Source: a virus | IMG/VR virus record: IMGVR_UViG_3300043570_000998 | Coordinates: 25,843-89,842 of that record | Length of the DNA: 64,000 nt | Direction: 5' to 3' (one strand) | Shown: piece after piece, positions 38,359 through 54,369 of the stretch | Numbering within the stretch: position 1 is the first letter of the stretch | Layout: the number at the start of each line of letters is the position of its first letter | Made by a program: the position numbers and the translations under genes | Notes under the pieces: generated by a model | The model's database searches: none | Told to the model about the DNA's origin: nothing | The model's input: the letters and a program-made list of their open reading frames with translations, nothing else

Positions 38359-39193
38359 TTATTTGCTCCATTATCTTATATGCAAAATCTCTTTTTTGTT
38401 TGATCCACCAAGACACAGCCCTATGCATATTTGCAGGATAGTCATTTTCTAGTTTTGTGATTAATGAATAAAGTTTCTTCCAATTCTTTATTTGATCTAT
38501 TGGCATATCTTTAAATAAGATTTCCCAAAATCCATAATCTTCACCAACACTACTTATTCTATCAGCAATTGGTAGAGACAACATTTCTAATCCTTCATAA
38601 AATCTAAATGAGTCAATTGTAGCGTTGCCAGCAGGGGCAGGAGCAAATCTAGAAGAAGCCAATAACCTGTAGTAGTCTTTTGGTGTTTCGCCTTGTGCAA
38701 ACTTTTTTGTAAGCTTATAGATTGCGTCTGGAAGCCTCTTTAAGGCTTGTGCAAGCTCTTGCCTACGTCGATGTGTTATTTGACCAGCAAAGTAAATATT
38801 TGTTGTTTTTTCTGGATAGTCTGGAATAACGTTATCTTTGTGGTTTGGGACACCAAGTGGTAGTTTGTTGTACGCTTCGTGTCGAGGGTACGGATACTGA
38901 ACCCAAATCTCTGCATTAGGATGGGAGATCTTATCAACATCAAATGCACCAAGTTCATCTGCTGTAATAAACAGAACAAGTCTTTTAATTTTAGAAAGGT
39001 TCTCATTAAGAACATCTTCAAAACTAATCCACTCAAAACCAGGGACTACAACAAAGGCTCTATCTGCTTCTGGAAGTTTGTTTACTTTGACAACCTCTAC
39101 ATTGTTCCTTGTAAATGCTTCTTGCAAGAATCCAAAGTCCCACTTTTCATCTGGGAAGCCTTTGCCCTTTGGAGTAAAAGAATAAGCTATCAC
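38348..39193 (-). CDS. Exostosin-like glycosyltransferase
   Basis: YFAGQ..Y..LASSRFAPAPAG..SFRFYEGLE. Confidence 0.7.
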   Translation of the reverse strand: MIAYSFTPKGKGFPDEKWDFGFLQEAFTRNNVEVVKVNKLPEADRAFVVVPGFEWISFEDVLNENLSKIKRLVLFITADELGAFDVDKISHPNAEIWVQYPYPRHEAYNKLPLGVPNHKDNVIPDYPEKTTNIYFAGQITHRRRQELAQALKRLPDAIYKLTKKFAQGETPKDYYRLLASSRFAPAPAGNATIDSFRFYEGLEMLSLPIADRISSVGEDYGFWEILFKDMPIDQIKNWKKLYSLITKLENDYPANMHRAVSWWIKQKRDFAYKIMEQINEH

Positions 39194-40146
39194 TTAATTT
39201 CTAGTTCCTTTAAAATTGTTGCCCATCTGTGTTTATATGTATGTTCACCCTTTGCACGTTCGTGTCCAGCAAGCCTAATAGCTTCTCGTTTTTCGTCGTG
39301 TTCAAGGTAGTAGTCAATTTTTTCTTTTAGGTCTCTAATGTTTCCGTGTTCGTAGAACACAATCTCTTCTTTGTCTTTAAAGAAATCGTTAAGCCCCACA
39401 ATATTTGGATAGATTGTAAACCCACCACGACCAGTAGATTCAAACAGTCTATCCGAAGAGTAATATGGATAGTTAAAATTAATGTTTAGCGTGTCACCAA
39501 TTGCAATCTTGCTACGAGCATAAATTCTATTTAACGCATCTCCACGAACTGTTCCTGTATCTCCGTCTCCACCAACGTGAAGAAATCTTTTGCCATAAAG
39601 CTCTCTCAAAGCATTTATGAGTTTTGGGCGGTAGGGATATTCAGGGTGATACCCTCTGCTACCAACAAAGATAACATCATAATCAAACGTACCATCATAG
39701 TCTGGATGAACATAACACTCAGGACCGAAGACTCCAGCAGGAAGAAAGTGACCCTTAACCTTAGTATTCTCGTTAAACCAATCAGCCATTAACTTATCAG
39801 TGGCAAAGAAGTGACCGATGTTTTTATAGAAAGGATCATTCTCAAGATCGTGCTGACGCTTAAGACCAAACCATAAGTCTAAGTGATATGTCATAGTTGG
39901 CACATTAGAATCTTTAAGCTCCTGAAGAATATCTATTCTTTCTTGACCAGGAGTGTTCCATCCGTGAGTATGAACCCAAACAAATAAGTCTGAAGTTACT
40001 GCTTCACGAAGCACTTTGCCCATTGTTGTACCACGTCCCTCTTGGAACTTTACAACTGTATGACCCAATGCCTCTAATGATTTTGCGTGATGATTCTCAC
40101 TGCTAAAATCTACCTGAAAGTTTCCCAGGAACGTAATCTTTGCCAA
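39190..40146 (-). CDS. CgeB-like glycosyltransferase
   Basis: DVIFVGS..YSSDRLFE..EHTYKHR. Confidence 0.8.
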   Translation of the reverse strand: MAKITFLGNFQVDFSSENHHAKSLEALGHTVVKFQEGRGTTMGKVLREAVTSDLFVWVHTHGWNTPGQERIDILQELKDSNVPTMTYHLDLWFGLKRQHDLENDPFYKNIGHFFATDKLMADWFNENTKVKGHFLPAGVFGPECYVHPDYDGTFDYDVIFVGSRGYHPEYPYRPKLINALRELYGKRFLHVGGDGDTGTVRGDALNRIYARSKIAIGDTLNINFNYPYYSSDRLFESTGRGGFTIYPNIVGLNDFFKDKEEIVFYEHGNIRDLKEKIDYYLEHDEKREAIRLAGHERAKGEHTYKHRWATILKELEIK

Positions 40147-40201
40147 AATAACCTCTTCTGTTCTCTATTAATTTTATCATATTAGGGAGTATAATTGTAT
40201 T

Positions 40202-40295
40202 GTCTCCACATAGGCATCGCTCTTAGGATGGACTAGTTACCCTGAAAATATAAAGACCGAGCCAAGGCAGGTTGAATCCTATGTGGGGACTTTTT
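40202..40295 (+). ncRNA. Putative ~95-nt small RNA
   Basis: TATAAT at 40190; 13-bp closing stem GTCTCCACATAGG/CCTATGTGGGGAC; T tract. Confidence 0.55.
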
Positions 40296-40318
40296 ATTTT
40301 GTGTGATATAATTGCGGT

Positions 40319-41431
40319 ATGCCATATAGCGTTGGAGAAAAAGGGTCTTACGCAGCCGTTAAAGACGACGGAACAGTAATGGGTTGCCACAAGACAGCTG
40401 AAGAAGCTGCTAATCAAATTTATGCTATCAATGTCAGTGAGGGCAACATCGATCCAAAGTCTGGACATTCTGGAATGGACGATGAAGAAAACGAACGTAT
40501 GGGTCGCCGTCGTAATGAAATGAAAAAAGATGGTCACATTAAAGAAGGTGACTACGTAATGGGAATGACCACAGAAGGTGTGGTCCACGGACGTGTTGAG
40601 CACATAATGTGGGAAGGTGGAACTCTTGGAGAGCCAGGCACAGACTATGCCATAGAATCAATGCCACCAGAAAACCCAGCAATGTCAGTTAGAGTTTTTG
40701 AAGAAGAGGACGAGGGTATGTGGCAAGAAACAGCATACAGTATTGGTATGATGTACCAGGATGCTACAGTCCTTGATGAATTGCAAGGACATTCTATGAG
40801 CGAAGAAGACGAAGAGATAGATATGATGTTCAAGGCAGAAACATTTAGCCCAACAGGTGGTATGAAAGCTGCTGCACGTCGTGCTCTTAAATGGAAAGAA
40901 GACGGTAAGGCTACAGGTGCAGGTACTCCAGTTGGTTGGGGCAGAGCATCAGATATCGTAGCAGGAAGAGCTATGTCTCTCAGTGTAGTTAGACGTATGT
41001 TCTCATTCTTCTCACGCCACGAGGTAGACAAGAAGGGCAAAGACTTTAACAACACTGCTAATCCTAGCAATGGTCGCATTATGTGGGACGCTTGGGGTGG
41101 AGATGCAGGATTCTCCTGGTCACGTGGCATCGTTGAGCGTATGAGAGACAAGGCATTGTTTGCTGATTTTGGCAAGGACTACACAAAGTCTACTAGAATG
41201 GTTGTTAAGGCAATTGGTGTAGGCTCTATGGTTAGCTGGAATTCTTCTGGCGGTAGAGCAAGCGGAAAGATTACCAGAATCATTCGTAATGGATCTTATA
41301 ATGTTCCAGGTACAGATGTAACAATCAATGGTACTCCAGATAACCCTGCTGCAGTCATTCGTCTATACCGTGATGGCAAGCCCACAGATACAATTGTTTC
41401 ACACAGAATGAACACTTTACGTTCAGCCTAG
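40319..41431 (+). CDS. Multidomain hypothetical protein with C-terminal DUF2945-like (Tudor) domain
   Basis: Leaderless start; RM.SFFSRH..WDAWGGDAG phage domain; VSWNSSGGRASGKI. Confidence 0.6.
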   Translation: MPYSVGEKGSYAAVKDDGTVMGCHKTAEEAANQIYAINVSEGNIDPKSGHSGMDDEENERMGRRRNEMKKDGHIKEGDYVMGMTTEGVVHGRVEHIMWEGGTLGEPGTDYAIESMPPENPAMSVRVFEEEDEGMWQETAYSIGMMYQDATVLDELQGHSMSEEDEEIDMMFKAETFSPTGGMKAAARRALKWKEDGKATGAGTPVGWGRASDIVAGRAMSLSVVRRMFSFFSRHEVDKKGKDFNNTANPSNGRIMWDAWGGDAGFSWSRGIVERMRDKALFADFGKDYTKSTRMVVKAIGVGSMVSWNSSGGRASGKITRIIRNGSYNVPGTDVTINGTPDNPAAVIRLYRDGKPTDTIVSHRMNTLRSA

Positions 41432-41433
41432 AC

Positions 41434-41462
41434 TTGACAACTGTTCTCATTTGCTGTAGAAT
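41434..41462 (+). promoter_or_regulatory. SigA promoter
   Basis: TTGACA-N17-TAGAAT. Confidence 0.75.
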
Positions 41463-41493
41463 ATAACTACAACACTAACGCATTAGGAGAGAA

Positions 41494-41700
41494 ATGCACG
41501 AGGAACACGCACACGAGGGCGAAACCCTTTTAGACACAATCATTGAGATCACGTTCGGTATTGAACATATGGCAGCAGAGTTTTTTTGGAATGCTGTCTT
41601 TTTGCTTGTTGGCTTTGCGGTATCAAAAGCAATCGCACTTCGCAAGATTCACAAGTACATTGACGAGAAGCACGGCGTAACACACGAGGAAGGTTATTAA
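41494..41700 (+). CDS. Small membrane protein
   Basis: RBS AGGAG; one TM; His-rich ends. Confidence 0.55.
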   Translation: MHEEHAHEGETLLDTIIEITFGIEHMAAEFFWNAVFLLVGFAVSKAIALRKIHKYIDEKHGVTHEEGY

Positions 41701-41993
41701 TGATTCAACCAATAGAAGACAAGGTAGTTATTAAAACTATCGAAGATGCTCAGGTAACAAAGTCTGGCATTATCATTACAGGAGACAAAGAAAAGCCTCA
41801 AGAGGCTATCGTCGTTGCTGTAGGAACAGGTGTCACAACTAAGAATGGCGTACACGTCCCCATCCCACTTGAGGTAGGACAGAAGGTAATCTTTGCAAAG
41901 TACAGCGGTACAGAGGTTCGACACGATGATACAGACTATGTAATCATTTCATACAACGACATTATTGCAGTAATTGAAGGTGAAGAAGATTAA
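41700..41993 (+). CDS. groES: Co-chaperonin GroES
   Basis: PIEDKVV, TKSGIII, VVAVG.G, KYSGTEV. Confidence 0.93.
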   Translation: MIQPIEDKVVIKTIEDAQVTKSGIIITGDKEKPQEAIVVAVGTGVTTKNGVHVPIPLEVGQKVIFAKYSGTEVRHDDTDYVIISYNDIIAVIEGEED

Positions 41994-42678
41994 GATAAGC
42001 GTACTTGATAAAGGCTATGTCCGTCTTGTTGATCAACTAGGTAATGATACATCAGTTGTAAATGCTGCTCGCGTATCATACGATAAAGAGTCTAAGGGCT
42101 TTGACGAGAAAGACGGAAAGCTACTCCACTTCCTCATTCGTGAGGGACATACAAGCCCATTTCGTCACGCTGCTCTAACCTTTGAGGTATACGCACCACT
42201 ATTTGTAGCACGTCAATGGTGGAAGTATGCAGTAGCATCTACACATATTGACGATCAGAATGGATGGAACGAGTCCTCACGTCGTTATATTACTGAGGAT
42301 GAAGAGTTTTATATTCCAGAGCCAGATCAATGGCGTAGCAAAGCTGAGAATAGTAAGCAAGGTAGTGGAGATCCAGTAGATGTAAGCATTGGCACAGACT
42401 ATACAGAAAGTCTCAAAGGTATGATTAGGGTTGGACAGTTTGCTTATCAAACTGCTATAAAGAATGGAATTGCTCCAGAACAGGCACGTCTATTCCTACC
42501 TGCATATGGAATGTATGTACGTTGGCGTTGGACTGTATCTCTTCAGGGTGCTATGACATTTCTTGAACAACGTCTAGGTCACGATGCACAGGTAGAGATC
42601 CAGGAGTATGCTAAGGCAGTTCAAAGTTTAACTAGACAAGCATTCCCTGCAACATTTATGGCGATGGATGGGGTATAA
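41974..42678 (+). CDS. thyX: Flavin-dependent thymidylate synthase
   Basis: NAARVSY, HTSPF, ARQW..NESSRRY, EQARLFLP, AQVEI. Confidence 0.9.
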   Translation: MKVKKIKISVLDKGYVRLVDQLGNDTSVVNAARVSYDKESKGFDEKDGKLLHFLIREGHTSPFRHAALTFEVYAPLFVARQWWKYAVASTHIDDQNGWNESSRRYITEDEEFYIPEPDQWRSKAENSKQGSGDPVDVSIGTDYTESLKGMIRVGQFAYQTAIKNGIAPEQARLFLPAYGMYVRWRWTVSLQGAMTFLEQRLGHDAQVEIQEYAKAVQSLTRQAFPATFMAMDGV

Positions 42679-42685
42679 TACTATT

Positions 42686-43366
42686 ATGGAACAGGAAAAT
42701 GCAAGTAGTTATCCACGTGCATATTTTGGAGAAACTATTCCTATACAAGAAAATACAGAGATGGTTATTATTGGTGAGACACCAGTAGCACCATCAAAAG
42801 GAGAAAACAAAGTGGTAACAGTAAAACGTAAACGAGTTAGCCCACAGCTATCTGCACAAAAGAAAGCTGAACGAGCAAAGAATGCATTGTATGCAAAACA
42901 GGAAGCCAGACGTGCTCCAAAAGTACAGGTTGACCAAGGGATAGTTCTTTGGACCTGGATTATTGGTATTGTAATTGCATTTGGTACATCAGCGGTAGTA
43001 TCTTTTAATGGAATTACTGCAGTTGCAACCTATGTAGGACTAGCAGCACCCTGGATGGCTACACTATTCTTCTTCTTTGTTGAGTTGATGTATGTGCTAT
43101 TCCTTATGGCGTACCTAGTTCTTCGATCTCGCATTGATGAAAATGGAAATCCTGAAAGATCAAGCGGAGCATTCTGGGGAATGTTTATGTTTGGTGCTAT
43201 TGCAGTTGCTGCTAATGGATTTCATACCCTGGACTTCTGGCAGTATGAGTGGACTAACCCACAAATGTGGGCAGGTATTATTCTAAGTATTGCTGCTCCT
43301 ATCGCTATTATTAGTGCCTCAAAGATGGCTTCTAGAGTAGTGTTTGCCAAGTCTATACAGCTCTAG
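42686..43366 (+). CDS. Membrane protein (DUF2637-like)
   Basis: Four TM segments; leaderless start. Confidence 0.55.
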   Translation: MEQENASSYPRAYFGETIPIQENTEMVIIGETPVAPSKGENKVVTVKRKRVSPQLSAQKKAERAKNALYAKQEARRAPKVQVDQGIVLWTWIIGIVIAFGTSAVVSFNGITAVATYVGLAAPWMATLFFFFVELMYVLFLMAYLVLRSRIDENGNPERSSGAFWGMFMFGAIAVAANGFHTLDFWQYEWTNPQMWAGIILSIAAPIAIISASKMASRVVFAKSIQL

Positions 43367-43373
43367 GTTAACT

Positions 43374-43447
43374 GGGGCAGTAGCATAACAGGTAAATGCA
43401 ATACTCTTATAAGGTATCGATAGCGAGTTCAAATCTCGTCTGCCCTA
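43374..43447 (+). tRNA. tRNA-Ile(TAT)
   Basis: GGGGCAG/CTGCCCT acceptor; ATACT-CT-TAT-AA-GGTAT arm. Confidence 0.85.
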
Positions 43448-43448
43448 C

Positions 43449-43520
43449 GCCCTTGTAGCTCAGAGGAAGAGCAGCAAGTTTCTACCTTGCGTGTCGCTGG
43501 TTCGATTCCAGTCAGGGGTT
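43449..43520 (+). tRNA. tRNA-Arg(TCT)
   Basis: GCAAG-TT-TCT-AC-CTTGC arm; TTCGA T loop. Confidence 0.85.
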
Positions 43521-44204
43521 CTCGTATTGCGAAGGATCTGGAAACATATCCTTTAAGATAAAATCAAGTATAAAGTCAAAGTTTGAGTCGTGACTAGATA
43601 TGTAGTTTAGGTCTTCTTTAATGAGGTCGTGGAACTTACCCTTTAATTCTGTATTACTATATACTTTTACATCGTAAGTCTTTGTGCCACCTACATTATA
43701 AACATTTCCATATGTTGATCTATGCAGTGTTTTATAGTTTAGTACTTCAAGAAGCTTTGCTTTGTTCATAGGCATAGGAACGTGCAGTTCATAATCTAAC
43801 TGATTCTTAATTCCCATTCTATTTAAATAATTTTGTGTTTTGCTAAACAGTCTTTGATATCCATAATTAGTCTGTCCTAAGTCTGAATAGTTTGCAAGCA
43901 CTTCTGCTATTGTTCCAGAATAAAAGTACTCAACCTTGTCTAGTTTCTTTACTGTAAAGAAGTCATCATTCATTAAAACAAAGTCATCGCTTATCTCTTC
44001 TGTCCTACAGATAACCTCTAGCTGTTTCCAGACGTTGGGATGTCCCAGACCAGTTTGCTGAACATAAATGTAATCCCCTGTGTACCAGTCTGGCTTTCCG
44101 CCAACCACCCAGATACGACCCTCTGGTAAATTTTTCACGGTAGACCTAATTGAGTATCTTAACTCTTCATTGTCTCCAGGACGACAAACATAAACGTAAT
44201 CCAT
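43512..44204 (-). CDS. Stealth-like sugar-phosphotransferase
   Basis: DYVY, DNEELRYSIRS, MNDDFF and H.P.PM motifs. Confidence 0.65.
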   Translation of the reverse strand: MDYVYVCRPGDNEELRYSIRSTVKNLPEGRIWVVGGKPDWYTGDYIYVQQTGLGHPNVWKQLEVICRTEEISDDFVLMNDDFFTVKKLDKVEYFYSGTIAEVLANYSDLGQTNYGYQRLFSKTQNYLNRMGIKNQLDYELHVPMPMNKAKLLEVLNYKTLHRSTYGNVYNVGGTKTYDVKVYSNTELKGKFHDLIKEDLNYISSHDSNFDFILDFILKDMFPDPSQYENP

Positions 44205-44255
44205 TGTTAATCCAATCTTTATTCTATTATATCATTAACTGGTATAATGGTTGTA

Positions 44256-44504
44256 ATGAGCGTGTCAGAGCATCTGGCGGTCCTTAGAGCCTATAAAGAG
44301 GACAAGGGTTGCACGGACTGCGGTTATAAATACCCTCATTTTATTCTTGAGTTTGACCACAAGCCAGGGTATCGTAAACTTGATAATGTCTATAGAGTAC
44401 TAAAAAAGTACGGAATAGATATGGCTTGGAAAGAGATAAGAAAATGTGACGTTGTTTGTTCTAACTGTCATAAGATAAGAACAAACGATAGAGAAGAGTC
44501 CTAG
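44256..44504 (+). CDS. Small HNH-like protein
   Basis: CTDC..FDH..KCDVVCSNCH. Confidence 0.75.
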   Translation: MSVSEHLAVLRAYKEDKGCTDCGYKYPHFILEFDHKPGYRKLDNVYRVLKKYGIDMAWKEIRKCDVVCSNCHKIRTNDREES

Positions 44505-44528
44505 GCTGCTATGGTGTATACTGAAGGT

Positions 44529-46322
44529 ATGAACTTTGAATATCCAATACACGCAGATCGCACCTATCGCATTGATGTAGATGGCGAACAGCATTACATC
44601 ACAGGCGAAAATCTTATTGCTATAGTACTTGACAAACTCAACCAAGAATGAGATAATAGGGGTATGAGAAAAATATTCATACCAACACCTAGTAACCTTA
44701 AACGTAGAGATGAGTTAATGATGAAGCGTGGTGCTCAAAGAATGAAGAGTCGTCTAGTAGATCTTGTAGAGGGTCGAATGGAGAACGGCATCTTTGAGGC
44801 ACAGGCTGCTTATGACCAAGGGCATCCAGATACTGGAGCCTATCTAAGTGGTGCTGTCGCTGCCTGTACTGCAATTATAGGTTCTATTCGAAAGGGAGAG
44901 TTCTAATGACTAACTATGTAAACCTTGACATTAAAGATATGAATGAAACCGAAAGAGAGATTGTGAACGCAGTTATTCACGAGGGAGAAATGAGACAGAA
45001 CGAAAAAATCATTGCCTTGCTTGAGCGTAAGGTCACAGAAGCTTATGGAAACAACAATCTTGAATTGATTGAGTTCCTTGAAGAACTTATCGTAGAAATT
45101 GAGAACATTTAATGGCTAAGACAATTGTACATTTTGGTTCTCCAAATGGAACTACCTATGGAGAGACAAAGAAAATCATTATCATAAAGGAATCAAAGAG
45201 TGAATACTCAGGTTGAGATGCGAGTAGGAGGAAATATTATTACGGTCCTCCACATAGCTCGCATTCAAGGAAACCCAGATAAGCATTCTATCAATAAATA
45301 TGTTGGTGGGTTCCGTCGTCCAGGTGAACAGCCAGATTGGTATGCTGACGATATGGTAGAGTTTGAGCACCGTTATGGTGATGGTATCGAAGAGCTTGTC
45401 CGTAAAGGATTAAACGCAATAAAAGAATCGGAGGAGTTGCAATGATTAAGCTTATGCACTATGAAACAAAAGAGGTAGTAGAGGTAGACCCAGTTGGCAT
45501 TGCTAATGGTTGGATGCTATGTATGGGCGGATACACATACAATATGAGATATTGGAGTCAGGTCTAGTGGATCGTAAAGCACGTAGAGACAATAAGAAAG
45601 TTCTTGAAACGGTCAAGCGTAAAGCCAAACAGGATATGGCAGAGTGGATTCTTGAAATTGATCGTATGCCAAGCGAACAAGAGATGCTTGCATTTCAGGC
45701 AGGGTACATTTCAGGAATGAATAGAGGAGCTAATAATGAAAGATAAAGTAGAGATGAAATATGTCTCCGACGATTCTGGGTACTGGGAACTTACAGTTAG
45801 CAATAAGTTTATTGGAGAACAGGTAGTAAGACTTGATGCCAGCAATGCTATGTTAATTGCTATGGCTATTGGTACTGTACGAGATTTGGGTAGACAAGAA
45901 GGTTACGAGAAAGCTCACAAGAAATATAAAGCTATCCACAAACTTTCTAATTTTACTACTCCCCTTACAACAGAAACAAACCGTCCTTGGGATGATGCAG
46001 ATACTCCAATGCGTTGGAATCCTGAGTGGAAGTTAAATGATCCAAACAAGTAATCATTTAGTTTGTATTTGTGGAACGACGTGTACAAATATGCTACATC
46101 CAGAACAGATACAGGATTTTTGGGATGCACACGAGGAGTGCTATGAACAACGATAAACTTGAAGAGATGTACAACAGGATTGTCCAGTCTTCTATGCAAG
46201 AAGGACGACTAATGGAACAAATTAAAATACTTAAGATAGTTTCTGCACTACATCAGCAGGGTAGAATAAGTGACGAAGTTATGCAAGTATTCTTTATGGA
46301 GCTATCACTTGACATAGATTGA
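44529..46322 (+). other. Cluster of small hypothetical genes (e.g. 44664-44906, 44906-45112, 45200-45445, 45736-46053)
   Basis: Tightly packed ORFs with RBS or leaderless starts; promoter TTGACA-N17-GATAAT at 44629. Confidence 0.55.
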
Positions 46323-46337
46323 CCCAACCTGTATAAT
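46309..46337 (+). promoter_or_regulatory. Consensus SigA promoter, leaderless transcript of nuclease gene
   Basis: TTGACA-N17-TATAAT, ATG 6 nt later. Confidence 0.85.
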
Positions 46338-46343
46338 AGAGGT

Positions 46344-47057
46344 ATGAGAGACATTAAGACCTATGCCCAATTGCGTACCTACCTTAATGATGGTAAGCGT
46401 TCGCAGTCACCTAAGACACAGGCTGTTCTTAATATCTTAATCGATAATCCTACTGGAGTGTTTCGTTGTTGTCTTCGTGCTAGGCTACAGGAGCAGGGGA
46501 TTGATGTTGGTCAGCCAGCAGCACAGATCCGTGACCTTCGTGCTAGTGGAGTAAACATTCCCAAGCAACCTAGCAAGGGATACTGTGACACACATAACCG
46601 TACAGACACTCTTGATATGTTAGAAGCACCTTACATTACTGGCAATGATTATGCTCGTGCAATCTATAGCCCTAAAGAAATTAAATCTATTCAAACACTT
46701 CTTGGCAACACTGATGCATTTACAATGATTCGTGTCAGCACTGCACTTGAAGTGGACCATCGCATTCCTGTTGGTCGTATGATGCTCTCGGATGAAGTCA
46801 AGGAGTCTAGGGTTAACGCTACAGACTTTGAGGCGGTAAATAAACAATACCAACTTCTTACTAGAGAAACCAACCTATACAAATCACGTATGTGTGAACG
46901 TTGTGTAGATACAGAAACAAAGCCAGAAGCGTTCCTTGGCATTGAGATACCAAAGTCTATGGGTGGTAACCAACCATTTGTAGAAGGCAAGAATGATTGT
47001 TCGTCTTGTCCATTCGCATTCCCAGAGAAGTTCCGTTCACAAATTAAATTCGCATAG
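46344..47057 (+). CDS. HNH restriction-endonuclease-like protein (NlaIII/IceA/NspI/SphI-like)
   Basis: LEVDH...YQLL...N..K...CERC...CSSC...P..FR parallels NlaIII IEIDH...FQPL...N..K...CKAC...CVGC...P..YR (alignment from memory). Confidence 0.65.
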   Translation: MRDIKTYAQLRTYLNDGKRSQSPKTQAVLNILIDNPTGVFRCCLRARLQEQGIDVGQPAAQIRDLRASGVNIPKQPSKGYCDTHNRTDTLDMLEAPYITGNDYARAIYSPKEIKSIQTLLGNTDAFTMIRVSTALEVDHRIPVGRMMLSDEVKESRVNATDFEAVNKQYQLLTRETNLYKSRMCERCVDTETKPEAFLGIEIPKSMGGNQPFVEGKNDCSSCPFAFPEKFRSQIKFA

Positions 47058-47065
47058 GAGATACA

Positions 47066-47545
47066 ATGCAAACATTCCTTCCATACGCAGACTTCAATAA
47101 GTCTGCAGAAGTTCTAGATAACCGACGACTCAACAAGCAGATCCTTGAAGGCTATCAAATCCTCAAGGTTCTTGGCAACCCTGACCCTCGTGCTGGATGG
47201 CGTAATCATCCTGCTGTTAAGATGTGGCGTGGTCACGAGTTCTCATTGTTTGGATACGTAATGACTATGGTTGATGAAGCCAAGGCTCGTGGCATCAAGA
47301 CTGATAAGAACGAAGAGAACCTTTGGAATCTTCACGCAGATCGATTCCTTGATTGGGGTGTAGGTGCTCCAGAATGGTGGGGTAACGAAGATAAGATGTC
47401 TCGCATTGTTACTACACACAAAGCTAATCTATATAAGAAAGATCCTATGTACTACCACGAATTTATTGATGCGGTCAATGATACAGACAACAAGCCTTGC
47501 TGCGATACTTGTCAGTACTACTGGGTTACACACGAGGTGGCATAA
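47066..47545 (+). CDS. MSMEG_6728 / pyrimidine-dimer glycosylase-like protein
   Basis: MQTFLPY..LD.RRL.KQ..E..Q...GW.NHPAV.MW.G. Confidence 0.85.
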   Translation: MQTFLPYADFNKSAEVLDNRRLNKQILEGYQILKVLGNPDPRAGWRNHPAVKMWRGHEFSLFGYVMTMVDEAKARGIKTDKNEENLWNLHADRFLDWGVGAPEWWGNEDKMSRIVTTHKANLYKKDPMYYHEFIDAVNDTDNKPCCDTCQYYWVTHEVA

Positions 47546-47748
47546 TGATTAAGTTTGAACACAATATGCTGGTTCTCAATAATGCATTTTCTAATGAGGA
47601 CGTCGAGCAGATCAATGCATTTGCAGAGTATGTTCGTAGCCAAGAACGTGATCGTATCATTGCACTACTTGAATCCAAGAATGAATGGCACTATGCGTTT
47701 TCAGACGTTTCTGATGTTATCGCACTTATTCAAGGAGAGAACAAATGA
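47545..47748 (+). CDS. Hypothetical protein
   Basis: Coupled; ERDRIIALLE motif shared with 44906 ORF. Confidence 0.5.
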   Translation: MIKFEHNMLVLNNAFSNEDVEQINAFAEYVRSQERDRIIALLESKNEWHYAFSDVSDVIALIQGENK

Positions 47749-47905
47749 TTCTAGCCTGGACATTGTTTACCGTAGGACTCGTTCTAGGTCTGATGGGTGG
47801 ACTCACTTGGGTAACCTGGTGGTTTGCTATTGCATTTAAAGACTATAAGCCTGAATCTGAATAAATAGTTCGGCGGAAAAGTTCGGCGGTATAGAGGACC
47901 TAAGC

Positions 47906-47934
47906 TTGACAAGCAAGCAAGTAATTGGTATAAT
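47906..47934 (+). promoter_or_regulatory. SigA promoter
   Basis: TTGACA-N17-TATAAT. Confidence 0.85.
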
Positions 47935-47960
47935 AGATATAACACAACAAGGAGAACACA

Positions 47961-48182
47961 TTGACAGTTAAGAAAACATACGATGCATTTGATGCACGTG
48001 GATGGAAGACACACGATGGCAAGGATCGAAGGATTACGCTGTATGTGCAAGGACAGCACGGAAGCGTACAGCACGATCTTTCATTGGCAGAGGTTGTTGA
48101 ATTGCAGGAACTCTTGGCACGAGCTGTTGCTCAGTCTGCTGAAGAGCCTAATAACAATCCCTGGAACGAGACTCCATTCTAA
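47961..48182 (+). CDS. Hypothetical protein
   Basis: TTG after AAGGAG. Confidence 0.55.
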   Translation: MTVKKTYDAFDARGWKTHDGKDRRITLYVQGQHGSVQHDLSLAEVVELQELLARAVAQSAEEPNNNPWNETPF

Positions 48183-48203
48183 TTCGGAGGTAGACGCAAA
48201 TAG

Positions 48204-48232
48204 TGAGGGGTAACGAAAGTTGCCCCTCATTT
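48204..48232 (+). terminator. Terminator hairpin
   Basis: TGAGGGGTAAC-GAAA-GTTGCCCCTCA. Confidence 0.75.
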
Positions 48233-48248
48233 GTTATATAATAATAGT

Positions 48249-48875
48249 ATGGAAACCACCCTAGTTAAATTGGTCCCATTGAAGGAAGGTCACGCCAGTG
48301 GTCTATACTTTAGCGTTGGGGCAAATGATAATGTGTTTCGTAATCTATTATGGGACACACCACAGTCAATCCTTGACTATGCCATAATCGTAAAGCAAAT
48401 CAAAAAGAATAATAATAAAAGCTTTGCGGTTATAGATAAAGCCACAAAACAAATTGTTGGCACAACATCCTATGTTGATTACTCCAAGCACGATAGGTCA
48501 GCAGAAATTGGCGGTACATTCTATTCAGAGTCAGTATGGAAAAGTCACATTAACACCCATAGTAAATACCTTATGCTGCAATATGCATTTGAGGTATTGG
48601 AGTGTGAGAGAGTAGCCTTCAAGACAGATGCACTCAACGAACGATCTCAGAAAGCAATCCTGCGTCTAGGTGCTACCTACGAAGGAACTAAGCGTCATAA
48701 CAAACTACGACCTGATGGAACCTGGAGAGACACCTCATACTTCTCTATTCTTGGAGATGAATGGGATGACATCAAAGCTACAATTTTCGGGGGAATTAAA
48801 AGTGATAACGAATATCCCCTATATAACAACATACCTATAACACCTATAGGAACATATAAGTCTATGTGGTTTTAG
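48249..48875 (+). CDS. GNAT acetyltransferase (RimJ/RimL family)
   Basis: AEIG..W...N..SK.L..YAFE..RV.FKTD.LN.RSQ.AI.RLGA.YEG..R....DG.WRDT. Confidence 0.88.
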   Translation: METTLVKLVPLKEGHASGLYFSVGANDNVFRNLLWDTPQSILDYAIIVKQIKKNNNKSFAVIDKATKQIVGTTSYVDYSKHDRSAEIGGTFYSESVWKSHINTHSKYLMLQYAFEVLECERVAFKTDALNERSQKAILRLGATYEGTKRHNKLRPDGTWRDTSYFSILGDEWDDIKATIFGGIKSDNEYPLYNNIPITPIGTYKSMWF

Positions 48876-49602
48876 GGATATAGAGCTGTTTGAGATCAAG
48901 GATAATAGCCCCACACAGCCCATTCTGAGGCTTCTGAGGACACATTTATCCACAGTTTTATCCACAATCATCTTACTGATATGGATATTATCTGACTGAA
49001 AGAGGATGTTGGATAAGTTGTTTGATGTACTGACTATATATAGTAGGCGTTCGTAATCCCAAACACTACATCTTGTGTCCCCATATACGCCAAACATCCC
49101 TTCTAGCACATCTACCCCCATTTGTCAACCCCTATATGTAGTGTATTTTATGCCCAGAAACCACTATATATTGTGTATAAACATATCAAAACATTCTATT
49201 TTATATCAGAAAATGTACAATTTGTGCAAGAATCTGGGAAAAATAATCAAGGGTTCGTAATGTCTATGTTTGTTATTATATAGGGGATAATGGGTATACT
49301 TAGCTGCCCCAAAATATTTATATCAAACCATCCTATTAGACATATCCACATTTCGGGGGTATCAAATAGAAGATCGTAATCCTTTAGTATATATATTACC
49401 TATAGGGGAAATACTCTATCATCTGATACCCTCCAAACTTTCTGGGATTTTTTGGAAAGGGTTCTTAATGTCTGTAGAATTTGGGAAATATATTTAGGGG
49501 TTCGTAATAGCTGTTCGTAAAGGTGTTTGTTAGTATGTTATAACATTTTGCGCAGCCACCTGGGGATAACTCTGTGGATAGAGCTACCCCCCTGTGGATA
49601 GA
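48876..49602. other. Non-coding convergence zone with DnaA boxes and TTCGTAA repeats (candidate origin or injection-control region)
   Basis: TTATCCACA at 48946 and 48958; TGTGGATAG at 49573 and 49593; repeated (GGG)TTCGTAAT; AT-rich. Confidence 0.55.
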
Positions 49603-49881
49603 TTACTCTGACTCTAGCGGAGTATCCCCTGTAGCCATAAGCAAATCGTCTAGCGAAATCCAGCCCTCGTCTTCTGTACCAAGACCAGAAAGCAAAAGGT
49701 CAAAGGTTTCGTCAATAAACTTATTGGACAATTCTGTTCCCTTGACAACTCCCTCGGACAAGGCATAAGCCAAAGGCAAGCCCATATCGTTATATTGGAT
49801 AAAGTCCTCGAACTGTTCATCATCACGAAAGTTTAGCCAAAGGTCAGCAAGGATAAGACACTTGTTCTCAAATGTAGTCAT
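49603..49881 (-). CDS. Acidic hypothetical protein
   Basis: ORF with RBS. Confidence 0.6.
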   Translation of the reverse strand: MTTFENKCLILADLWLNFRDDEQFEDFIQYNDMGLPLAYALSEGVVKGTELSNKFIDETFDLLLSGLGTEDEGWISLDDLLMATGDTPLESE

Positions 49882-50062
49882 TGTGTTTGCTCTCTTTCTC
49901 ATCTTTTAGAAAATCTGCCATAAGCAGGATACGGTTGATTGTTACATTGGGTGACAGTTGGTGAACATAAAGTGAAATCATTTCCAAATCCAAACGCAAG
50001 TCTGAAATCATATCTGATAATCGCTTTGCCACCTTTTCCTCGTCTGTTACTATTTTTCTCAT
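49868..50062 (-). CDS. Hypothetical protein
   Basis: TGGTATAAT promoter and GAGGAG RBS. Confidence 0.55.
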   Translation of the reverse strand: MRKIVTDEEKVAKRLSDMISDLRLDLEMISLYVHQLSPNVTINRILLMADFLKDEKESKHNDYI

Positions 50063-50085
50063 ATTACTCCTCAATCCATTATACC

Positions 50086-50200
50086 AAAAGTGGGGCAGGA
50101 ACGCAAGTGCTGAAAGGAATAAAGTCACTTACGTCCCCACCCAGTTTGTAGACGGAACCCCCATTCAACGTCTACTGTCCGTCACGCCATTGTGACAGGC
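50086..50200 (-). ncRNA. Three-hairpin structured RNA/terminator with anti-SD loop
   Basis: Stems CTGTCAC/GTGACGG, GTAGACG/CGTCTAC, GTGGGG-ACGTAAGTG/CACTTGCGT-CCCCAC, then T tract. Confidence 0.5.
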
Positions 50201-50207
50201 TATGTGT

Positions 50208-50543
50208 CTATATATAGTTAAGGGCTAGAGCACCTGGACGACGCTCTCCCAAATCGATCCCCTTGAGTATCTTACCAATACGACGTGTAGGAATCTTTAC
50301 CTCGTTGGCAAACACCCACCAGTCACTGCCGTACTCGTCCATAGGGAACTGGTCTGCAAGCCACTCAGTCTCATAGAAGTCACACTTGATGAGGACACCA
50401 GTTTCAATGTTACGAATACCTTCGTCATCCTCTTCCCTGATGTATACTTCAATGGTTAGTTTGTCATCCCACCAGGTCCCCAACTCTTTCGTGTAGAACT
50501 CCTTGTAGAACATATTTAGGTCTAGCGTTCTATACCCTCGCAT
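50208..50543 (-). CDS. Hypothetical protein
   Basis: RBS GAAAGG. Confidence 0.6.
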   Translation of the reverse strand: MRGYRTLDLNMFYKEFYTKELGTWWDDKLTIEVYIREEDDEGIRNIETGVLIKCDFYETEWLADQFPMDEYGSDWWVFANEVKIPTRRIGKILKGIDLGERRPGALALNYI

Positions 50544-50557
50544 AATTACCTTTCGAT

Positions 50558-51076
50558 TTAGAAGTGGAAGTCAACAGGGACAAGGAACCAAAGTGTACCG
50601 TTGTTGATACGGTCTTTAGTCATATGAACAGGATTAGTTGACCAGTTCTCAAGGTCAAAGAAGTAGGAGTTGAAGTCCCAGTTACCCTGAGCCATATCAA
50701 TCATCTTGCCGAGGGTATAGAGTTTCATAGAGTAGTCCATAGTACCGTCAAACTCATCAAAGTAAGAATCAAGATTGATGTTGCTCTGCTCCCACTCGGC
50801 ACGGTAACGACGGAATTCTGAAAGACGTGACTCAATGCATTCATCTAGAATCTTCTCGAATGCTTCACTATCTTTAGAAGAAACAACCATACTCTCGTCA
50901 CCGTCTTTGTATGGGTCAGCGTTAGGATTGAAACGTCCACCACCAGTTACGAACCAGTCGTACCAAGAAGTAGTGGAACCGTCATTGCCAAGCATTGATT
51001 CTAAAGTTGAACGAATACTGTAAATGGCTTCTTCAGGGGAATCAGCCTTTACTGCGATGTATTGTAGAACGTGCAT
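50558..51076 (-). CDS. Hypothetical protein (WYDWF.TGGGRF family)
   Basis: RBS; promoter TTGACA-N17-TATAAT at 51134-51106. Confidence 0.65.
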   Translation of the reverse strand: MHVLQYIAVKADSPEEAIYSIRSTLESMLGNDGSTTSWYDWFVTGGGRFNPNADPYKDGDESMVVSSKDSEAFEKILDECIESRLSEFRRYRAEWEQSNINLDSYFDEFDGTMDYSMKLYTLGKMIDMAQGNWDFNSYFFDLENWSTNPVHMTKDRINNGTLWFLVPVDFHF

Positions 51077-51397
51077 TTGTTTTTCCTTTTGTTGTAAGTT
51101 ATCTTATTATATCAAGATTCGGGGTTTTTGTCAAGAGGTTCGTAAGGGAACTTTGTCATTAGGTGTTCGTATGCTTCGACGATACCTTGCAGGTAGTCAG
51201 AACCTTGTCCATCTTGTAAGACAGACTCTTCCCAATCCTCAAGAACGTCAGGGTATTGATTAGTTATATAAGATAAGATCTGATTATCCATTACAGTTCT
51301 CCTACTACTACCTTGCCAAAACAATCAGTACAAAGATAGTTATAGTCTTCTACATCTGCATACACAGCATAATTGGTACATCCATTTATCTCACACA

Positions 51398-51565
51398 TTA
51401 TTCATTGTCCTGAATCTCAAAGTCCCACTCTGCGTGGTTCTTGTATGGGTCAAAGTCATCTAGAATCCAGTCGTCCAATGAGGCATAGGCTGCATCCTCA
51501 CTCTCTGCTTCAACAGGAACGAGATACTCAGTACGCACGGTTGCTGTGATTAGATATTTACGCAT
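51398..51565 (-). CDS. Small acidic protein (VEAESEDAA family; not in track)
   Basis: MRKYLITATVRTEYLVPVEAESEDAAY... Confidence 0.6.
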   Translation of the reverse strand: MRKYLITATVRTEYLVPVEAESEDAAYASLDDWILDDFDPYKNHAEWDFEIQDNE

Positions 51566-51800
51566 ACACCCTCTTATCGTCAGTTACAAATACATCTTCA
51601 ATCCACGGCTTCTCGGTAACGAAATAGCCAAGACGATTGAATCGGCGGTAGCCATTGGTTAGATTAGCGTACCGTCCATCTCCGTCAATCATTGTCCAAA
51701 CATAGTTAGGCAAAGTACCGTCAGGGATATCGTCAAGGTCATCGTAAGCCAATGGGGTAGTTGGCAGATAGGTGTCTTCCCATTCGTCCCAAGTAATCAT
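51558..51800 (-). CDS. Hypothetical protein
   Basis: VWT..DG...G...NRLGYFVTE.PW. Confidence 0.6.
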   Translation of the reverse strand: MITWDEWEDTYLPTTPLAYDDLDDIPDGTLPNYVWTMIDGDGRYANLTNGYRRFNRLGYFVTEKPWIEDVFVTDDKRVYA

Positions 51801-51991
51801 TACTCTACAATCTCCATTTCGATACAGTTATAAAGGTCTTCCCCTTGATAAGACATCTGAACTAGGTCTTGTGCCATAGTCTCTCTGAAATAATCTAGTT
51901 TCTCTTCTAGAGTTGCTTCCTCGCTAAACATCTCAAAGAGTGGGTCTTCGTCAAGGTTGAACTCAAAGGTAATAGTTCCTCGTGCAATCAT
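51800..51991 (-). CDS. Small acidic protein
   Basis: Coupled ORF. Confidence 0.55.
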   Translation of the reverse strand: MIARGTITFEFNLDEDPLFEMFSEEATLEEKLDYFRETMAQDLVQMSYQGEDLYNCIEMEIVE

Positions 51992-52152
51992 TACTTATCT
52001 CCAAAGTTATTGCTGTCATAGGGGTCAATCATTGCTTCCCAATCACCGTCAGGCATATCTTCGTGCTGAATGATAGCCAACTCGATTGCTTGCTCTTCGC
52101 TATCTGCTTCTACCCAATAGGTAGCATTGTATTCTACTTGATAAGTCTTCAT
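51991..52152 (-). CDS. Small acidic protein (VEADSEEQA family; not in track)
   Basis: MKTYQVEYNATYWVEADSEEQAIE..., RBS GAGGAG. Confidence 0.6.
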   Translation of the reverse strand: MKTYQVEYNATYWVEADSEEQAIELAIIQHEDMPDGDWEAMIDPYDSNNFGDK

Positions 52153-52323
52153 CTTACTCCTCGTCCATAAATTTGATGAATGTCTTTATTAGGTTTAGTC
52201 CAATTATAGCATTGAGGTACGACACGGAACTATCGTTCAGCAACTCGTCAATCTTGGTCGTAATCTCTTGCTTGACAGATTCCCTGGATTCTAAAATGGC
52301 ATCCGTAATCATTTCTCTGCTGG

Positions 52324-52554
52324 TCATAAGGACACCTTCCCATAGTCGTCAAATTCTTCAGCCTTGCCCTCGTCTTCCCAATCTGAATTGAGACTCCAGT
52401 TCTTAGCATCATCGTTGAAAAGACTAATAAGCATATTCTGAGATTCATCATCAAACCTGCCAATGTCCCACTCGTCCGTGCCTACAATAGCAAACTTGAT
52501 TTCGGCAGGGTATTTGTTGTGGTCATAAATATAAACCATTACCTTAGTACTCAT
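52324..52554 (-). CDS. Small acidic protein
   Basis: RBS GGAGAGG. Confidence 0.55.
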   Translation of the reverse strand: MSTKVMVYIYDHNKYPAEIKFAIVGTDEWDIGRFDDESQNMLISLFNDDAKNWSLNSDWEDEGKAEEFDDYGKVSL

Positions 52555-52610
52555 TGCTCATATCCTCTCCACAGAACATACAGTAGTCACCGTCATTAGG
52601 GACACAGTTA

Positions 52611-52823
52611 TCACTCTTCATCTTCAGGCTCACATTCACACTCTTCAATGTCTGATTCACAGTCTTCACACACTTCTCCATCTTCTTCAATCTCTAACTC
52701 ATCAGTACCGTGATAGTAGTCATTGAGATTTTTGAGGAAGATATCATAAGCCTCATCTTCAGTTTCAGCAATGATACCCTCAGCCACATATTCATATGTA
52801 GCACGAACATCAAACTTCTTCAT
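52611..52823 (-). CDS. Very acidic small protein (IAETEDEA family)
   Basis: First gene after cassette promoter. Confidence 0.6.
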   Translation of the reverse strand: MKKFDVRATYEYVAEGIIAETEDEAYDIFLKNLNDYYHGTDELEIEEDGEVCEDCESDIEECECEPEDEE

Positions 52824-53004
52824 TTCATACCTTTCATTAGGGGATACTTCTATTATACTGCGTACCACCGACATAAAACAAGAGGAATTCGGGTGATTTT
52901 TTTAGAGGTTCGTAATTGATTTTTAATGATTAACTATCTATGTTTAGAAATTTTGGGGCGCAGCTCCTGTGGATAACTTATCCCCAATCGATCCCCCTAG
53001 GGGG

Positions 53005-53031
53005 AGGCAGTTTAGACTGTTGCCTAGCAGT
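53005..53031 (-). ncRNA. H-type pseudoknot motif, copy B
   Basis: ACTG-CT-AGGCA-A-CAGT-CTAAAC-TGCCT. Confidence 0.65.
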
Positions 53032-53037
53032 TAGGGA

Positions 53038-54060: not shown

Positions 54061-54369
54061 TGTATACCTTTCGTTTTGTTGTTAGTTCTATTATACAGCC
54101 GACCACCGACATATAACTATTTCAGGGAACATTTTGGGAGCTTCGTAACCTAACCGTAATAAGTATGTTCTAACAAATCGGGGGCGCAAATCGATCCCCT
54201 ACCCATACAAAAATCCCCCTGTTTACCAGCAGTCTATCCAGACCACTTCACAGGGGGACTAATGTGTGAAAGTTTATTTTAGTAAAGACCCATCATTTCA
54301 CCGTAGTAACTTCTTTACCTAGACAGTTCCTATATATCAACTGACAACTTCAACCTCTGTTTCAAGGTG

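What the first reader, a model, noticed from the sequence alone, without database searches (positions are those of the whole stretch)
46309..47057. Solitary NlaIII/NspI-like HNH nuclease in a genome apparently free of CATG
Seen: I found no CATG in the stretches I scanned (about 200 expected in 64 kb). His codons followed by G read CAC-G (e.g. gcacgaggaacacgcacacgag near 41496), and the start codons I checked never follow C. The 237-aa ORF has a perfect SigA leaderless promoter and a motif order matching, from memory, the HNH family that includes NlaIII (CATG), NspI (RCATGY) and SphI (GCATGC). No methyltransferase is in the window. Inference: a restriction-type nuclease used against host or competitor DNA, with self-protection by site avoidance rather than methylation. 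CCGG and GGCC also looked absent, so host R-M pressure is an alternative cause.
Basis: partly seen in the sequence, partly recalled or inferred. Interest (0 to 1): 0.8.

Follow-up and report, generated by a model that had tools for sequence, protein, structure and literature searches.

The report
Orphan restriction-type nuclease in CATG-free phage
A lake-water phage of actinobacteria has erased every CATG, CCGG and GGCC from its DNA and also carries a lone, mobile restriction-enzyme-like nuclease gene, but comparison with relatives indicates that the two features are probably unrelated.

Summary
CATG, CCGG and GGCC each occur 0 times in the 64-kb window and in the whole 89,842-bp phage genome (321 CATG expected).

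The 237-aa ORF is real and sits behind a 12/12 consensus promoter. It is a winged-helix domain plus a zinc HNH nuclease. Its C-terminal half is a remote homologue of NlaIII/IceA1 (Pfam ICEA): no direct Pfam hit, but 52 of 70 relatives hit it, and hhalign gives 97.9%. Cellular relatives sit beside DNA methylases. The phage gene has none.

The proposed link between nuclease and CATG loss is not supported:
- A collinear relative lacks exactly this ORF and has 1 CATG in 93,875 bp.
- An intact 86%-identical copy sits in a backbone with 9 CATG in 10 kb.
- All 10 carriers of 49-54%-identical copies keep CATG.
- In 80 related loci, all-or-none loss also affects CCGG (78), CGCG (75), GCGC (66), GGCC (28), AGCT (18), GATC (15) and TCGA (2). 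This fits host restriction avoidance.

My reading is a mobile orphan restriction-type nuclease of unknown target. The scan noted similar orphan nucleases on other DNA.

The parts
1..64000 (.). Genome-wide absence of CATG, CCGG and GGCC, and near-absence of CGCG and GCGC
   Evidence: k-mer counts. (codon-pair choice). (site-by-site replacement relative to L010/L011).
46309..46337 (+). Consensus sigma-70/SigA-type promoter: TTGACA, 17 nt, TATAAT. ATG lies 6 nt after the -10 box, so a leaderless mRNA is likely.
   Evidence: 12/12 match, the only perfect one in 45400-47800. G001 keeps the promoter, where it precedes the denV-like gene.
46344..47057 (+). 237-aa orphan restriction-type endonuclease gene (winged helix + zinc HNH)
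   Evidence: ORF. (35 and 92 homologues). (invariant residues). (dN/dS 0.13).
46356..46631 (+). N-terminal winged-helix domain, about residues 5-96, with conserved C42, C43, C81 and H84
   Evidence: HTH_39 hit in 23 of 33 family members. In the AF2 model, residues 3-99 match PerR/Fur/Zur-type winged helices with Z 8.0-8.8.
46614..47039 (+). C-terminal ICEA-like (NlaIII/IceA1-like) His-Me finger half, residues 91-232. Conserved: D138, H139, N177; C184, C187, C219, C222.
   Evidence: hhalign of the family profile against a true ICEA protein: 97.9%, E 3.5e-13. 52 of 70 relatives hit PF05315. Invariant columns.
46341..47052 (.). ORF-sized presence/absence segment; 9 bp stand in its place in relative G001
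   Evidence: Also absent in G026, G856, L130 and L133. An HNH-less junction contig occurs in lake run X5.
47066..47545 (+). Downstream gene behind the same promoter: pyrimidine-dimer DNA glycosylase (T4 DenV-like)
   Evidence: Pfam Pyr_excise, E 1.4e-19. 94% identical in G001.

Best explanation
Two separate things lie here.

(a) The missing sites. The phage infects an actinobacterium in lake water. It has removed every CATG, CCGG and GGCC, and nearly every CGCG and GCGC, by point changes. The cause is most likely that its hosts' Type II restriction systems cut those sites. Sister phages show the same all-or-none loss for other sets of 4-letter palindromes.

(b) The ORF at 46344-47057. It encodes a site-specific DNA endonuclease descended from a Type II restriction enzyme lineage. 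An N-terminal winged helix binds DNA. A C-terminal zinc-stabilised His-Me finger cuts it: D138/H139 and N177 are the catalytic and metal residues, and C184/C187/C219/C222 form a Cys4 zinc site.

The gene has lost its methylase partner. It behaves as a mobile accessory gene: it comes and goes as an exact ORF-sized unit between a strong early promoter and a denV-like gene, and it sits in other slots in more distant phages. I infer that it cuts DNA of genomes that lack it (co-infecting relatives or the host), much as the free-standing homing/exclusion nucleases of T-even phages do. I also infer that its target is not tied to CATG.

Shown: homology, architecture, orphan status, mobility, purifying selection, and the lack of a strict link with CATG. 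Inferred: activity, target and biological role.
For: Avoidance:
- Sites were purged one at a time.
- Zero counts in 80 DnaE-related loci: CCGG 78, CGCG 75, GCGC 66, GGCC 28, AGCT 18, GATC 15, CATG 5, TCGA 2.
- Three near-complete collinear genomes: G000 HNH+ with CATG 0/321; G001 HNH- with 1/340; G856 HNH- with 93/327. All three have 0 CCGG and 0 GGCC.
- Complete or almost complete site elimination is reported for about one-tenth of prokaryotic virus genomes (PMC6286503, abstract read).

Host: the genome has a WhiB gene (39.8 bits), and runs labelled lake water or freshwater metagenome hold the stretch.

Nuclease identity:
- 52 of 70 relatives hit PF05315.
- P0125 passes the ICEA cut-off (35.3 bits) and is 30% identical to query residues 44-234.
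- hhalign of family profile A2 against a true ICEA protein (165.6 bits) gives 97.9%, E 3.5e-13.
- The nearest ESM Atlas clusters to the C-terminal part are ICEA clusters, score 0.93.

Restriction ancestry:
- Cellular relatives lie directly downstream of Dam-family methylases in L101, L103, L104 and L108. hhalign of A1 against the L104 nuclease gives 95.4%, E 2e-8.
- Others lie beside methylases with a DPPY motif in L111, L112 and L115.

Orphan status: no methylase found.

Mobility:
- ORF-exact indel.
- The same slot is filled in a G026/G856-type backbone, L166.
- Other slots are used in L001/L002, L003-type loci, L005 and L009.
- Both alleles occur in run X5.

Selection: dN/dS is 0.13 and 0.15.
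Against: - No activity, cut site or expression was measured.
- No ββα-Me structure match was obtained. Fold searches returned only winged-helix hits, and a model of the C-terminal domain alone could not be made.
- Carriage of close copies (74% identity or more) is strongly skewed to CATG-free DNA: 9 of 10 informative carriers. The one 57% copy (G043, 0/103) is also CATG-free. Only 1 of 5 HNH-less near relatives that cover the slot is CATG-free. A CATG-cutting enzyme would predict this skew. I explain it by shared hosts and gene pools, which I have not shown.
- Other small non-nuclease ORFs in this region also come and go as gene-sized units, for example 45736-46053. The indel is therefore not specific evidence for homing.
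- The host and its restriction systems are unknown.
Confidence: 0.5

Rival explanations
1. The enzyme cuts CATG, or a CATG-containing site, in host or rival DNA. The phage is safe because it has no CATG. Only CATG-free genomes can carry the gene.
For: - CATG is the only adenine-containing 4-bp palindrome absent from this genome, and cellular relatives pair with adenine methylases.
- 9 of 10 informative carriers of copies 74% identical or more have no CATG: G000 0/321, G027 0/84 and 0/51, G029 0/77, L165 0/77, L167 0/17, L169 0/25, L172 0/16, L175 0/9, L176 0/10.
- G043, with a 57% copy, has 0/103.
- CATG-free loci are rare among relatives: 5 of 80.
- The catalytic half is homologous to the family of the CATG enzymes NlaIII/IceA1.
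- G001 (no gene, no CATG) is compatible with a model in which the CATG-free state permits carriage.
Against: - L166 has an intact 237-aa copy, 86% identical. The flanks on both sides are most like CATG-bearing HNH-less phages (up to 99% to G026). It has 9 CATG in 10 kb, the nearest about 1.45 kb from the gene.
- All 10 informative carriers of 49-54% copies keep CATG at 26-70% of expectation, and those genes are under purifying selection.
- In the protein tree, the CATG-free carrier L005 groups with CATG-bearing clades (support 83/95), not with the window's clade.
- The ICEA profile and the true ICEA protein align only with the C-terminal part of this family; Pfam matches begin at profile position 74 or later.
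- In CATG-bearing carriers, RCATGY is present: 11 ACATGC/GCATGT.
Confidence: 0.13
2. An orphan restriction enzyme used to degrade the host chromosome early in infection. Its target is another site that all carriers lack, for example a longer or GC-rich site.
For: - Strong early-type promoter.
- Restriction-enzyme ancestry.
- The only 4-mer absent from all 10 carrier sequences analysed (244 kb) is CCGG. Several 6-mers, such as GTCGAC, are also absent.
- Viral use of restriction systems is known: PBCV-1 encodes the CviAII CATG system (PMC7248222, passages read).
Against: - CCGG is equally absent from relatives without the gene (78 of 80 loci), so nothing ties it to the enzyme.
- Adenine methylase partners in cellular relatives argue for a site containing A.
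- L128, a distant phage copy, lies in DNA where no 4-mer palindrome is avoided.
- Sister phages do without the gene.
Confidence: 0.2
3. Not a nuclease in vivo. The protein acts as a winged-helix DNA-binding regulator, or as a helper of the adjacent denV-like repair gene.
For: The N-terminal winged helix resembles Fur/PerR/MarR regulators. The gene shares an operon with denV in this genome.
Against: D138, H139, N177 and the four zinc cysteines are invariant or nearly so across 70 sequences. The denV adjacency is not conserved in L001, L002, L003 or L005.
Confidence: 0.07

Closest known systems
NlaIII / IceA1 restriction endonucleases (Pfam PF05315 ICEA; His-Me finger group 27 in PMC5714182)
   Same: The C-terminal zinc HNH half is homologous (hhalign 97.9%). 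Motif order is shared: xDH, then N..K...C..C, then C..C. Size is similar, about 200-240 aa. Cellular members sit next to a methylase.
   Different: The phage protein has no direct Pfam hit. The N-terminal half is an HTH_39-like winged helix that does not align with ICEA positions 1-73. There is no methylase. The target is unknown, and CATG is not supported by comparison with relatives.
Uncharacterised bacterial winged-helix + HNH nucleases paired with Dam-family methylases (loci L101, L103, L104, L108)
   Same: Same two-domain architecture and length. Homology spans residues 54-237 (95.4%).
   Different: These form methylase-nuclease operons in Bacteroidales and Gammaproteobacteria. The phage gene is solitary. 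Identity is low.
Free-standing homing/exclusion endonucleases of phages (T4 seg and mob genes, I-HmuI; recalled, not checked here)
   Same: An intergenic, ORF-sized presence/absence polymorphism between conserved flanks. Sporadic spread across backbones. An HNH catalytic domain.
   Different: The gene belongs to a restriction-enzyme lineage, not the usual HNH/HNH_3 homing families. No target in the empty allele is known.
Restriction-site avoidance in virulent dsDNA phages (Rusinov et al. 2018, PMC6286503)
   Same: Complete elimination of short palindromes by point changes.
   Different: An unusually large and lineage-variable set of eliminated 4-mers within one phage family.
Chlorovirus PBCV-1 R.CviAII/M.CviAII (a viral CATG system; PMC7248222)
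   Same: A virus-encoded restriction-type nuclease.
   Different: PBCV-1 protects itself by methylation and keeps its CATG sites. I made no sequence comparison.

Membership tests
Pfam PF05315 ICEA (NlaIII/IceA1) | The protein itself reaches the family's curated score (24 bits) | tested here: not met
   No ICEA hit at E up to 1 for the protein or at E up to 10 in the whole genome. Relatives do pass: P0050 27.8, P0125 35.3, P0122 38.2 bits.
Pfam PF05315 ICEA (NlaIII/IceA1) | Homology of the catalytic HNH half | tested here: met
   52 of 70 relatives hit ICEA. hhalign of A2 against a 165.6-bit ICEA protein gives 97.9%, E 3.5e-13, over query residues 91-232. A1 alone against one ICEA sequence is weak: 16.5%, E 0.0015.
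Pfam PF05315 ICEA (NlaIII/IceA1) | N-terminal half alignable with the family | tested here: not met
   All matches of relatives start at profile position 74 or later. hhalign covers only residues 91-232.
Pfam PF05315 ICEA (NlaIII/IceA1) | CATG specificity | not testable with these tools
   Indirect evidence is mixed: 9 of 10 close-copy carriers are CATG-free, but L166 and all 10 carriers of 49-54% copies hold CATG.
His-Me finger (HNH, ββα-Me) nucleases | Catalytic His with a preceding Asp, a helix Asn, and zinc-binding Cys pairs | tested here: met
   D138, H139, N177, K180, C184 and C187 are invariant in 70 sequences; C219 and C222 are conserved in 90% or more. The roles assigned to these residues are recalled from Hpy99I and T4 endonuclease VII, not tested here.
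His-Me finger (HNH, ββα-Me) nucleases | ββα fold | tested here: inconclusive
   The AF2 model (pLDDT 87.7) has strand 136-139, strand 169-172 and helix 174-190. Fold searches listed only winged-helix matches to residues 3-99.
Type II restriction-modification system | A cognate methyltransferase in the same genome | tested here: not met
   No D12 methylase in 11 phage records including this one. No N6_N4 or C5 methylase in this genome. Cellular relatives do have one.
SphI (group 28) and NspI HNH families | Sequence membership | not tested
   No sequences of these enzymes were on hand. The literature lists them apart from NlaIII.
Free-standing homing endonuclease | Presence/absence polymorphism between conserved flanks | tested here: met
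   Window 46341-47052 corresponds to 9 bp in G001. The gene is absent in G026, G856, L130 and L133. It is present in the same slot in L165 and L166. An HNH-less junction contig occurs in run X5.
Free-standing homing endonuclease | Cleavage of the empty allele | not testable with these tools
   Needs an enzyme assay or a co-infection experiment.
Restriction-site avoidance | Sites far below expectation and removed by point changes | tested here: met
Restriction-site avoidance | The host encodes enzymes for the avoided sites | not testable with these tools
   The host is unknown beyond an actinobacterial signature (WhiB) and a lake-water origin.

The most novel reading that the evidence does not exclude
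The window's nuclease clade cuts CATG, and only CATG-free genomes can carry it. The phage would then use a methylase-less restriction enzyme as a self-safe weapon against its own CATG-bearing sister phages, such as G856, and against the host. The copies in CATG-bearing phages would have switched target.
Probability: 0.13. Interest if true: 0.7.

Novelty: new member of a known kind. Interest (0 to 1): 0.38.

Why it matters
As it stands, this is a clean natural example of two known things.

First, it shows extreme restriction-site avoidance that varies by lineage within one family of uncultured freshwater actinophages.

Second, it shows a restriction-enzyme gene living without its methylase as a mobile phage gene. 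The phage family offers a natural experiment. Near-identical backbones occur with and without the gene, and with and without CATG. This would let a cut-site assay decide quickly whether phages use site-free genomes to carry self-safe nucleases.

The uncharacterised winged-helix + HNH enzymes paired with Dam-family methylases could also yield new restriction specificities.

Tried and rejected
Searches that gave nothing:
- Direct family and structure searches of the protein found nothing: PHROGs, PDB sequences, NCBIfam. The A1 profile against PDB gave only a chance-level row, E 0.83.
- tblastn against 50,697 phage records found no match. Megablast of the 6-kb neighbourhood found no match.
- Foldseek and VIA searches with the whole model returned only winged-helix proteins. 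This says nothing about the C-terminal fold.
- The A1 pattern scan of species genomes found no relative.
- Names from sources: none of the 35 proteins or 53 proteins carries more than 'hypothetical protein'.

Search for a target by k-mers:
- Only CCGG among 4-mers is absent from all 10 carrier sequences, and it is equally absent from non-carriers.
- NspI-type RCATGY is not avoided in CATG-bearing carriers. For GCATGC (0 seen, 4 expected) the sample is too small.

Two-part chimera reading of L166: rejected as unlikely, because the best matches on both sides of the gene are CATG-bearing phages. Read-level proof is lacking.

Rows dropped:
- From the CATG tally of carriers, for fewer than 9 expected sites: L164 0/8, L168 0/6, L170 0/5, L171 0/4, L180 2/5, L182 1/4.
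- L173 was dropped as the same contig as G030.
- L008 was dropped because its protein is identical to that of L007.

Limits of other steps:
- Read laying used contigs only. No contig spans the whole stretch, and depth is not informative.
- Supplementary files of papers were not consulted.
Full report
**1. Observation**

The window (64,000 bp, GC 39.9%) has no CATG. Base composition predicts 229 and a second-order Markov estimate predicts 204. It also has no CCGG and no GGCC, 4 CGCG and 12 GCGC. Several 6-mer palindromes with no depleted 4-mer core are missing too: GGTACC 0 against 10.9, GTGCAC 0 against 7.7, GCTAGC 0 against 6.1.

The window is part of a single 89,842-bp virus contig. In the printout, its last 150 or so bases repeat its first ones. 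The whole contig has CATG 0/321, CCGG 0/141 and GGCC 0/141.

Codon choice shows how the sites were avoided, in 37 long ORFs:
- His before a G-initial codon is CAC 80 times and CAT never.
- 0 of 322 codons before ATG end in C.

Two relatives that are 89% identical in DNA carry 13 and 19 CATG sites. This genome has changed every one of them to a near variant, nearly all by a single base.

**2. The gene**

ORF 46344-47057 encodes 237 aa. It follows TTGACA, 17 nt, TATAAT at 46309-46337, the only 12/12 promoter match in 45400-47800. ATG lies 6 nt after the -10 box.

The protein has no significant hit of its own:
- Pfam gives only a weak HTH_39 match.
- PHROGs, NCBIfam and PDB sequences give nothing.
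- 50,697 phage records give no tblastn match.

It does have 35 close and 92 detectable homologues in metagenomes, none of them named. Alignments show invariant or nearly invariant D138, H139, N177, K180, C184, C187, C219 and C222, with C42, C81 and H84 in the N-terminal part.

The AlphaFold model (pLDDT 87.7) has an N-terminal winged helix. Residues 3-99 match PerR, Zur and Fur with Z 8.2-8.8. After it comes a strand, a strand and a long helix carrying the conserved residues.

**3. Relation to NlaIII/IceA1**

Of 70 relatives found by phmmer, 52 hit Pfam PF05315 (ICEA), best E 8e-14. The hits always fall on profile positions about 74-212 of 218.
- P0125 passes the family cut-off and is 30% identical to query residues 44-234.
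The family profile aligns to one of them with 97.9% probability, E 3.5e-13, over query residues 91-232. The narrower profile A1 against a single ICEA sequence is weak: 16.5%.
- The nearest ESM Atlas clusters to the C-terminal part are ICEA clusters, score 0.93. I treat this as a lead only.

So the catalytic half is a remote homologue of NlaIII/IceA1, and the N-terminal half is not alignable. In the classifications I read as passages, PF05315 holds NlaIII and IceA1, while SphI and NspI are listed separately (PMC5714182; PMC2441816).

**4. Restriction ancestry and orphan status**

In cellular genomes, relatives sit in methylase-nuclease pairs.
- Six Bacteroidales or Gammaproteobacteria loci have an ORF of about 300 aa abutting the nuclease gene upstream.
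- All four that I scanned are D12/Dam-family adenine methylases.
- The L104 nuclease aligns to the phage family over residues 54-237, at 95.4%, E 2e-8.

The phage genome has no D12, N6_N4 or C5 methylase. Ten other phage records, nine of them carriers, have no D12 methylase either.

**5. Host and habitat**

- The DnaE-type polymerase is closest to those of Streptomyces phages, at about 55%.
- The genome has a WhiB gene.
- The stretch is held by runs labelled lake water or freshwater metagenome.

An actinobacterial host in lakes is likely. It is not identified.

**6. Is the nuclease linked to CATG loss?**

*Against the link*

(i) G001 is a collinear relative of 93,875 bp, 82.6% identical over 77% of the genome. 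It lacks any homologue. Window 46341-47052 is replaced there by 9 bp, and the promoter then precedes the denV-like gene. G001 has 1 CATG (340 expected), 0 CCGG and 0 GGCC.

(ii) L166 carries an intact 237-aa copy, 86% identical. The flanks on both sides are most like CATG-bearing HNH-less phages, up to 99% to G026. It has 9 CATG in 10 kb.

(iii) All 10 informative carriers of 49-54% copies keep CATG:

| Carrier | CATG observed/expected |
|---|---|
| G030 | 96/147 |
| L004 | 18/40 |
| L006 | 25/50 |
| L007 | 30/63 |
| L008 | 17/38 |
| L009 | 38/71 |
| L174 | 10/39 |
| L177 | 7/10 |
| L178 | 13/39 |
| L179 | 30/55 |

These genes are under purifying selection, dN/dS 0.15. More distant copies also lie in CATG-bearing DNA: L128 36/53 and L181 39/48.

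(iv) In the protein tree, the CATG-free carrier L005 groups with CATG-bearing clades (support 83/95), not with the window's clade.

(v) CATG is one item in a patchwork. Among 80 loci with DnaE 77-97% identical, zero counts occur as follows:

| Site | Loci with zero count (of 80) |
|---|---|
| CCGG | 78 |
| CGCG | 75 |
| GCGC | 66 |
| GGCC | 28 |
| AGCT | 18 |
| GATC | 15 |
| CATG | 5 |
| TCGA | 2 |

*For the link*

- 9 of 10 informative carriers of copies 74% identical or more are CATG-free.
- G043, with the 57% copy, has 0/103.
- Only 1 of 5 HNH-less near relatives that cover the slot is CATG-free: G001 1/340, against G856 93/327, G026 61/175, L130 21/59 and L133 19/42.
- By DnaE and by an anchor gene, the window is closer to CATG-bearing phages (97% and 96%) than to the other carriers G027/G029 (82% by DnaE for G027; 82% and 75% by the anchor gene). 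The co-occurrence is therefore not simple common descent.

I weigh these as roughly cancelling. The CATG reading stays near its prior, at about 0.13.

**7. Mobility**

The gene occupies the same slot, after an 83-aa ORF, in G000, L165 and L166. The denV-like gene follows it in G000 and L166. The nearest relatives of these backbones lack it.

It lies elsewhere in other phages:
- upstream context conserved but no denV downstream in L001/L002;
- directly after the DnaB-like helicase in G030;
- next to a homologue of 40319-41431 in G043.

In lake run X5, one contig runs from the promoter straight into a denV start (the HNH-less allele), while other contigs hold the gene. This rests on contigs only, and on a single record. 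dN/dS between the window and the L001 copy is 0.13.

**8. Verdict**

The sequence observation is confirmed. The identification as an NlaIII-like HNH nuclease holds, as a remote relationship limited to the catalytic half.

The site losses are best explained by host restriction pressure, a known strategy. Complete or almost complete elimination is reported for about one-tenth of prokaryotic virus genomes (PMC6286503, abstract read).

The gene is best read as a mobile orphan restriction-type endonuclease of unknown target. It acts like a free-standing homing or exclusion nuclease. That part is inferred.

Notes of this scan describe orphan NlaIII-like nucleases in CATG-free phages on other DNA. 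I did not test those.

Noticed in passing
L010-L089 (relatives by DnaE, window 16386-19664): Within one phage family (DnaE 77-97% identical), different lineages have completely lost different 4-mer palindromes. GATC is 0 in 15 of 80 loci, AGCT in 18, GGCC in 28, TCGA in 2. CCGG, CGCG and GCGC are gone in almost all. TGCA is over-represented (578 against 321 expected in this genome).
   Followed up: partly
window 35388-35561 (G000:61230-61403): WhiB-like gene (39.8 bits), a marker of actinobacteria and their phages. A second weak match lies at G000:48533-48589.
   Followed up: no
window 47066-47545: T4 DenV-like pyrimidine-dimer glycosylase (Pyr_excise, E 1.4e-19) behind the same promoter. It is absent from this slot in L001, L002 and G026, and lies elsewhere in G027/G029.
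   Followed up: partly
window 45746-46052: A second gene-sized indel: the 105-aa ORF 45736-46053 is missing in G001 and G026. Small accessory ORFs here come and go as whole units.
   Followed up: partly
G003:C1:33971-34213 (locus L095): A weak match to the nuclease profile (19.6 bits, E 2.3e-5), broken by four stop codons, in a 103-kb relative. It may be a decayed copy.
   Followed up: no
window 36590-40146, minus strand: Four consecutive ORFs, the first matching a glycosyltransferase PHROG (E 5e-8). Their role, whether in DNA or cell-surface modification, was not examined.
   Followed up: no
G000 ends (1 to about 150 and the last 150 or so bases): The contig's ends repeat each other with one mismatch visible in the printout. 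The genome may therefore be complete and circularly permuted, although the source classes it as linear and 83% complete.
   Followed up: no
It lies next to genes whose products look high-GC, which suggests a recently acquired island.
   Followed up: no
L152 and L181: High-GC contigs (64% and 74%) carry distant homologues of the anchor gene or of the nuclease. All palindromes there are at normal frequency.
   Followed up: no
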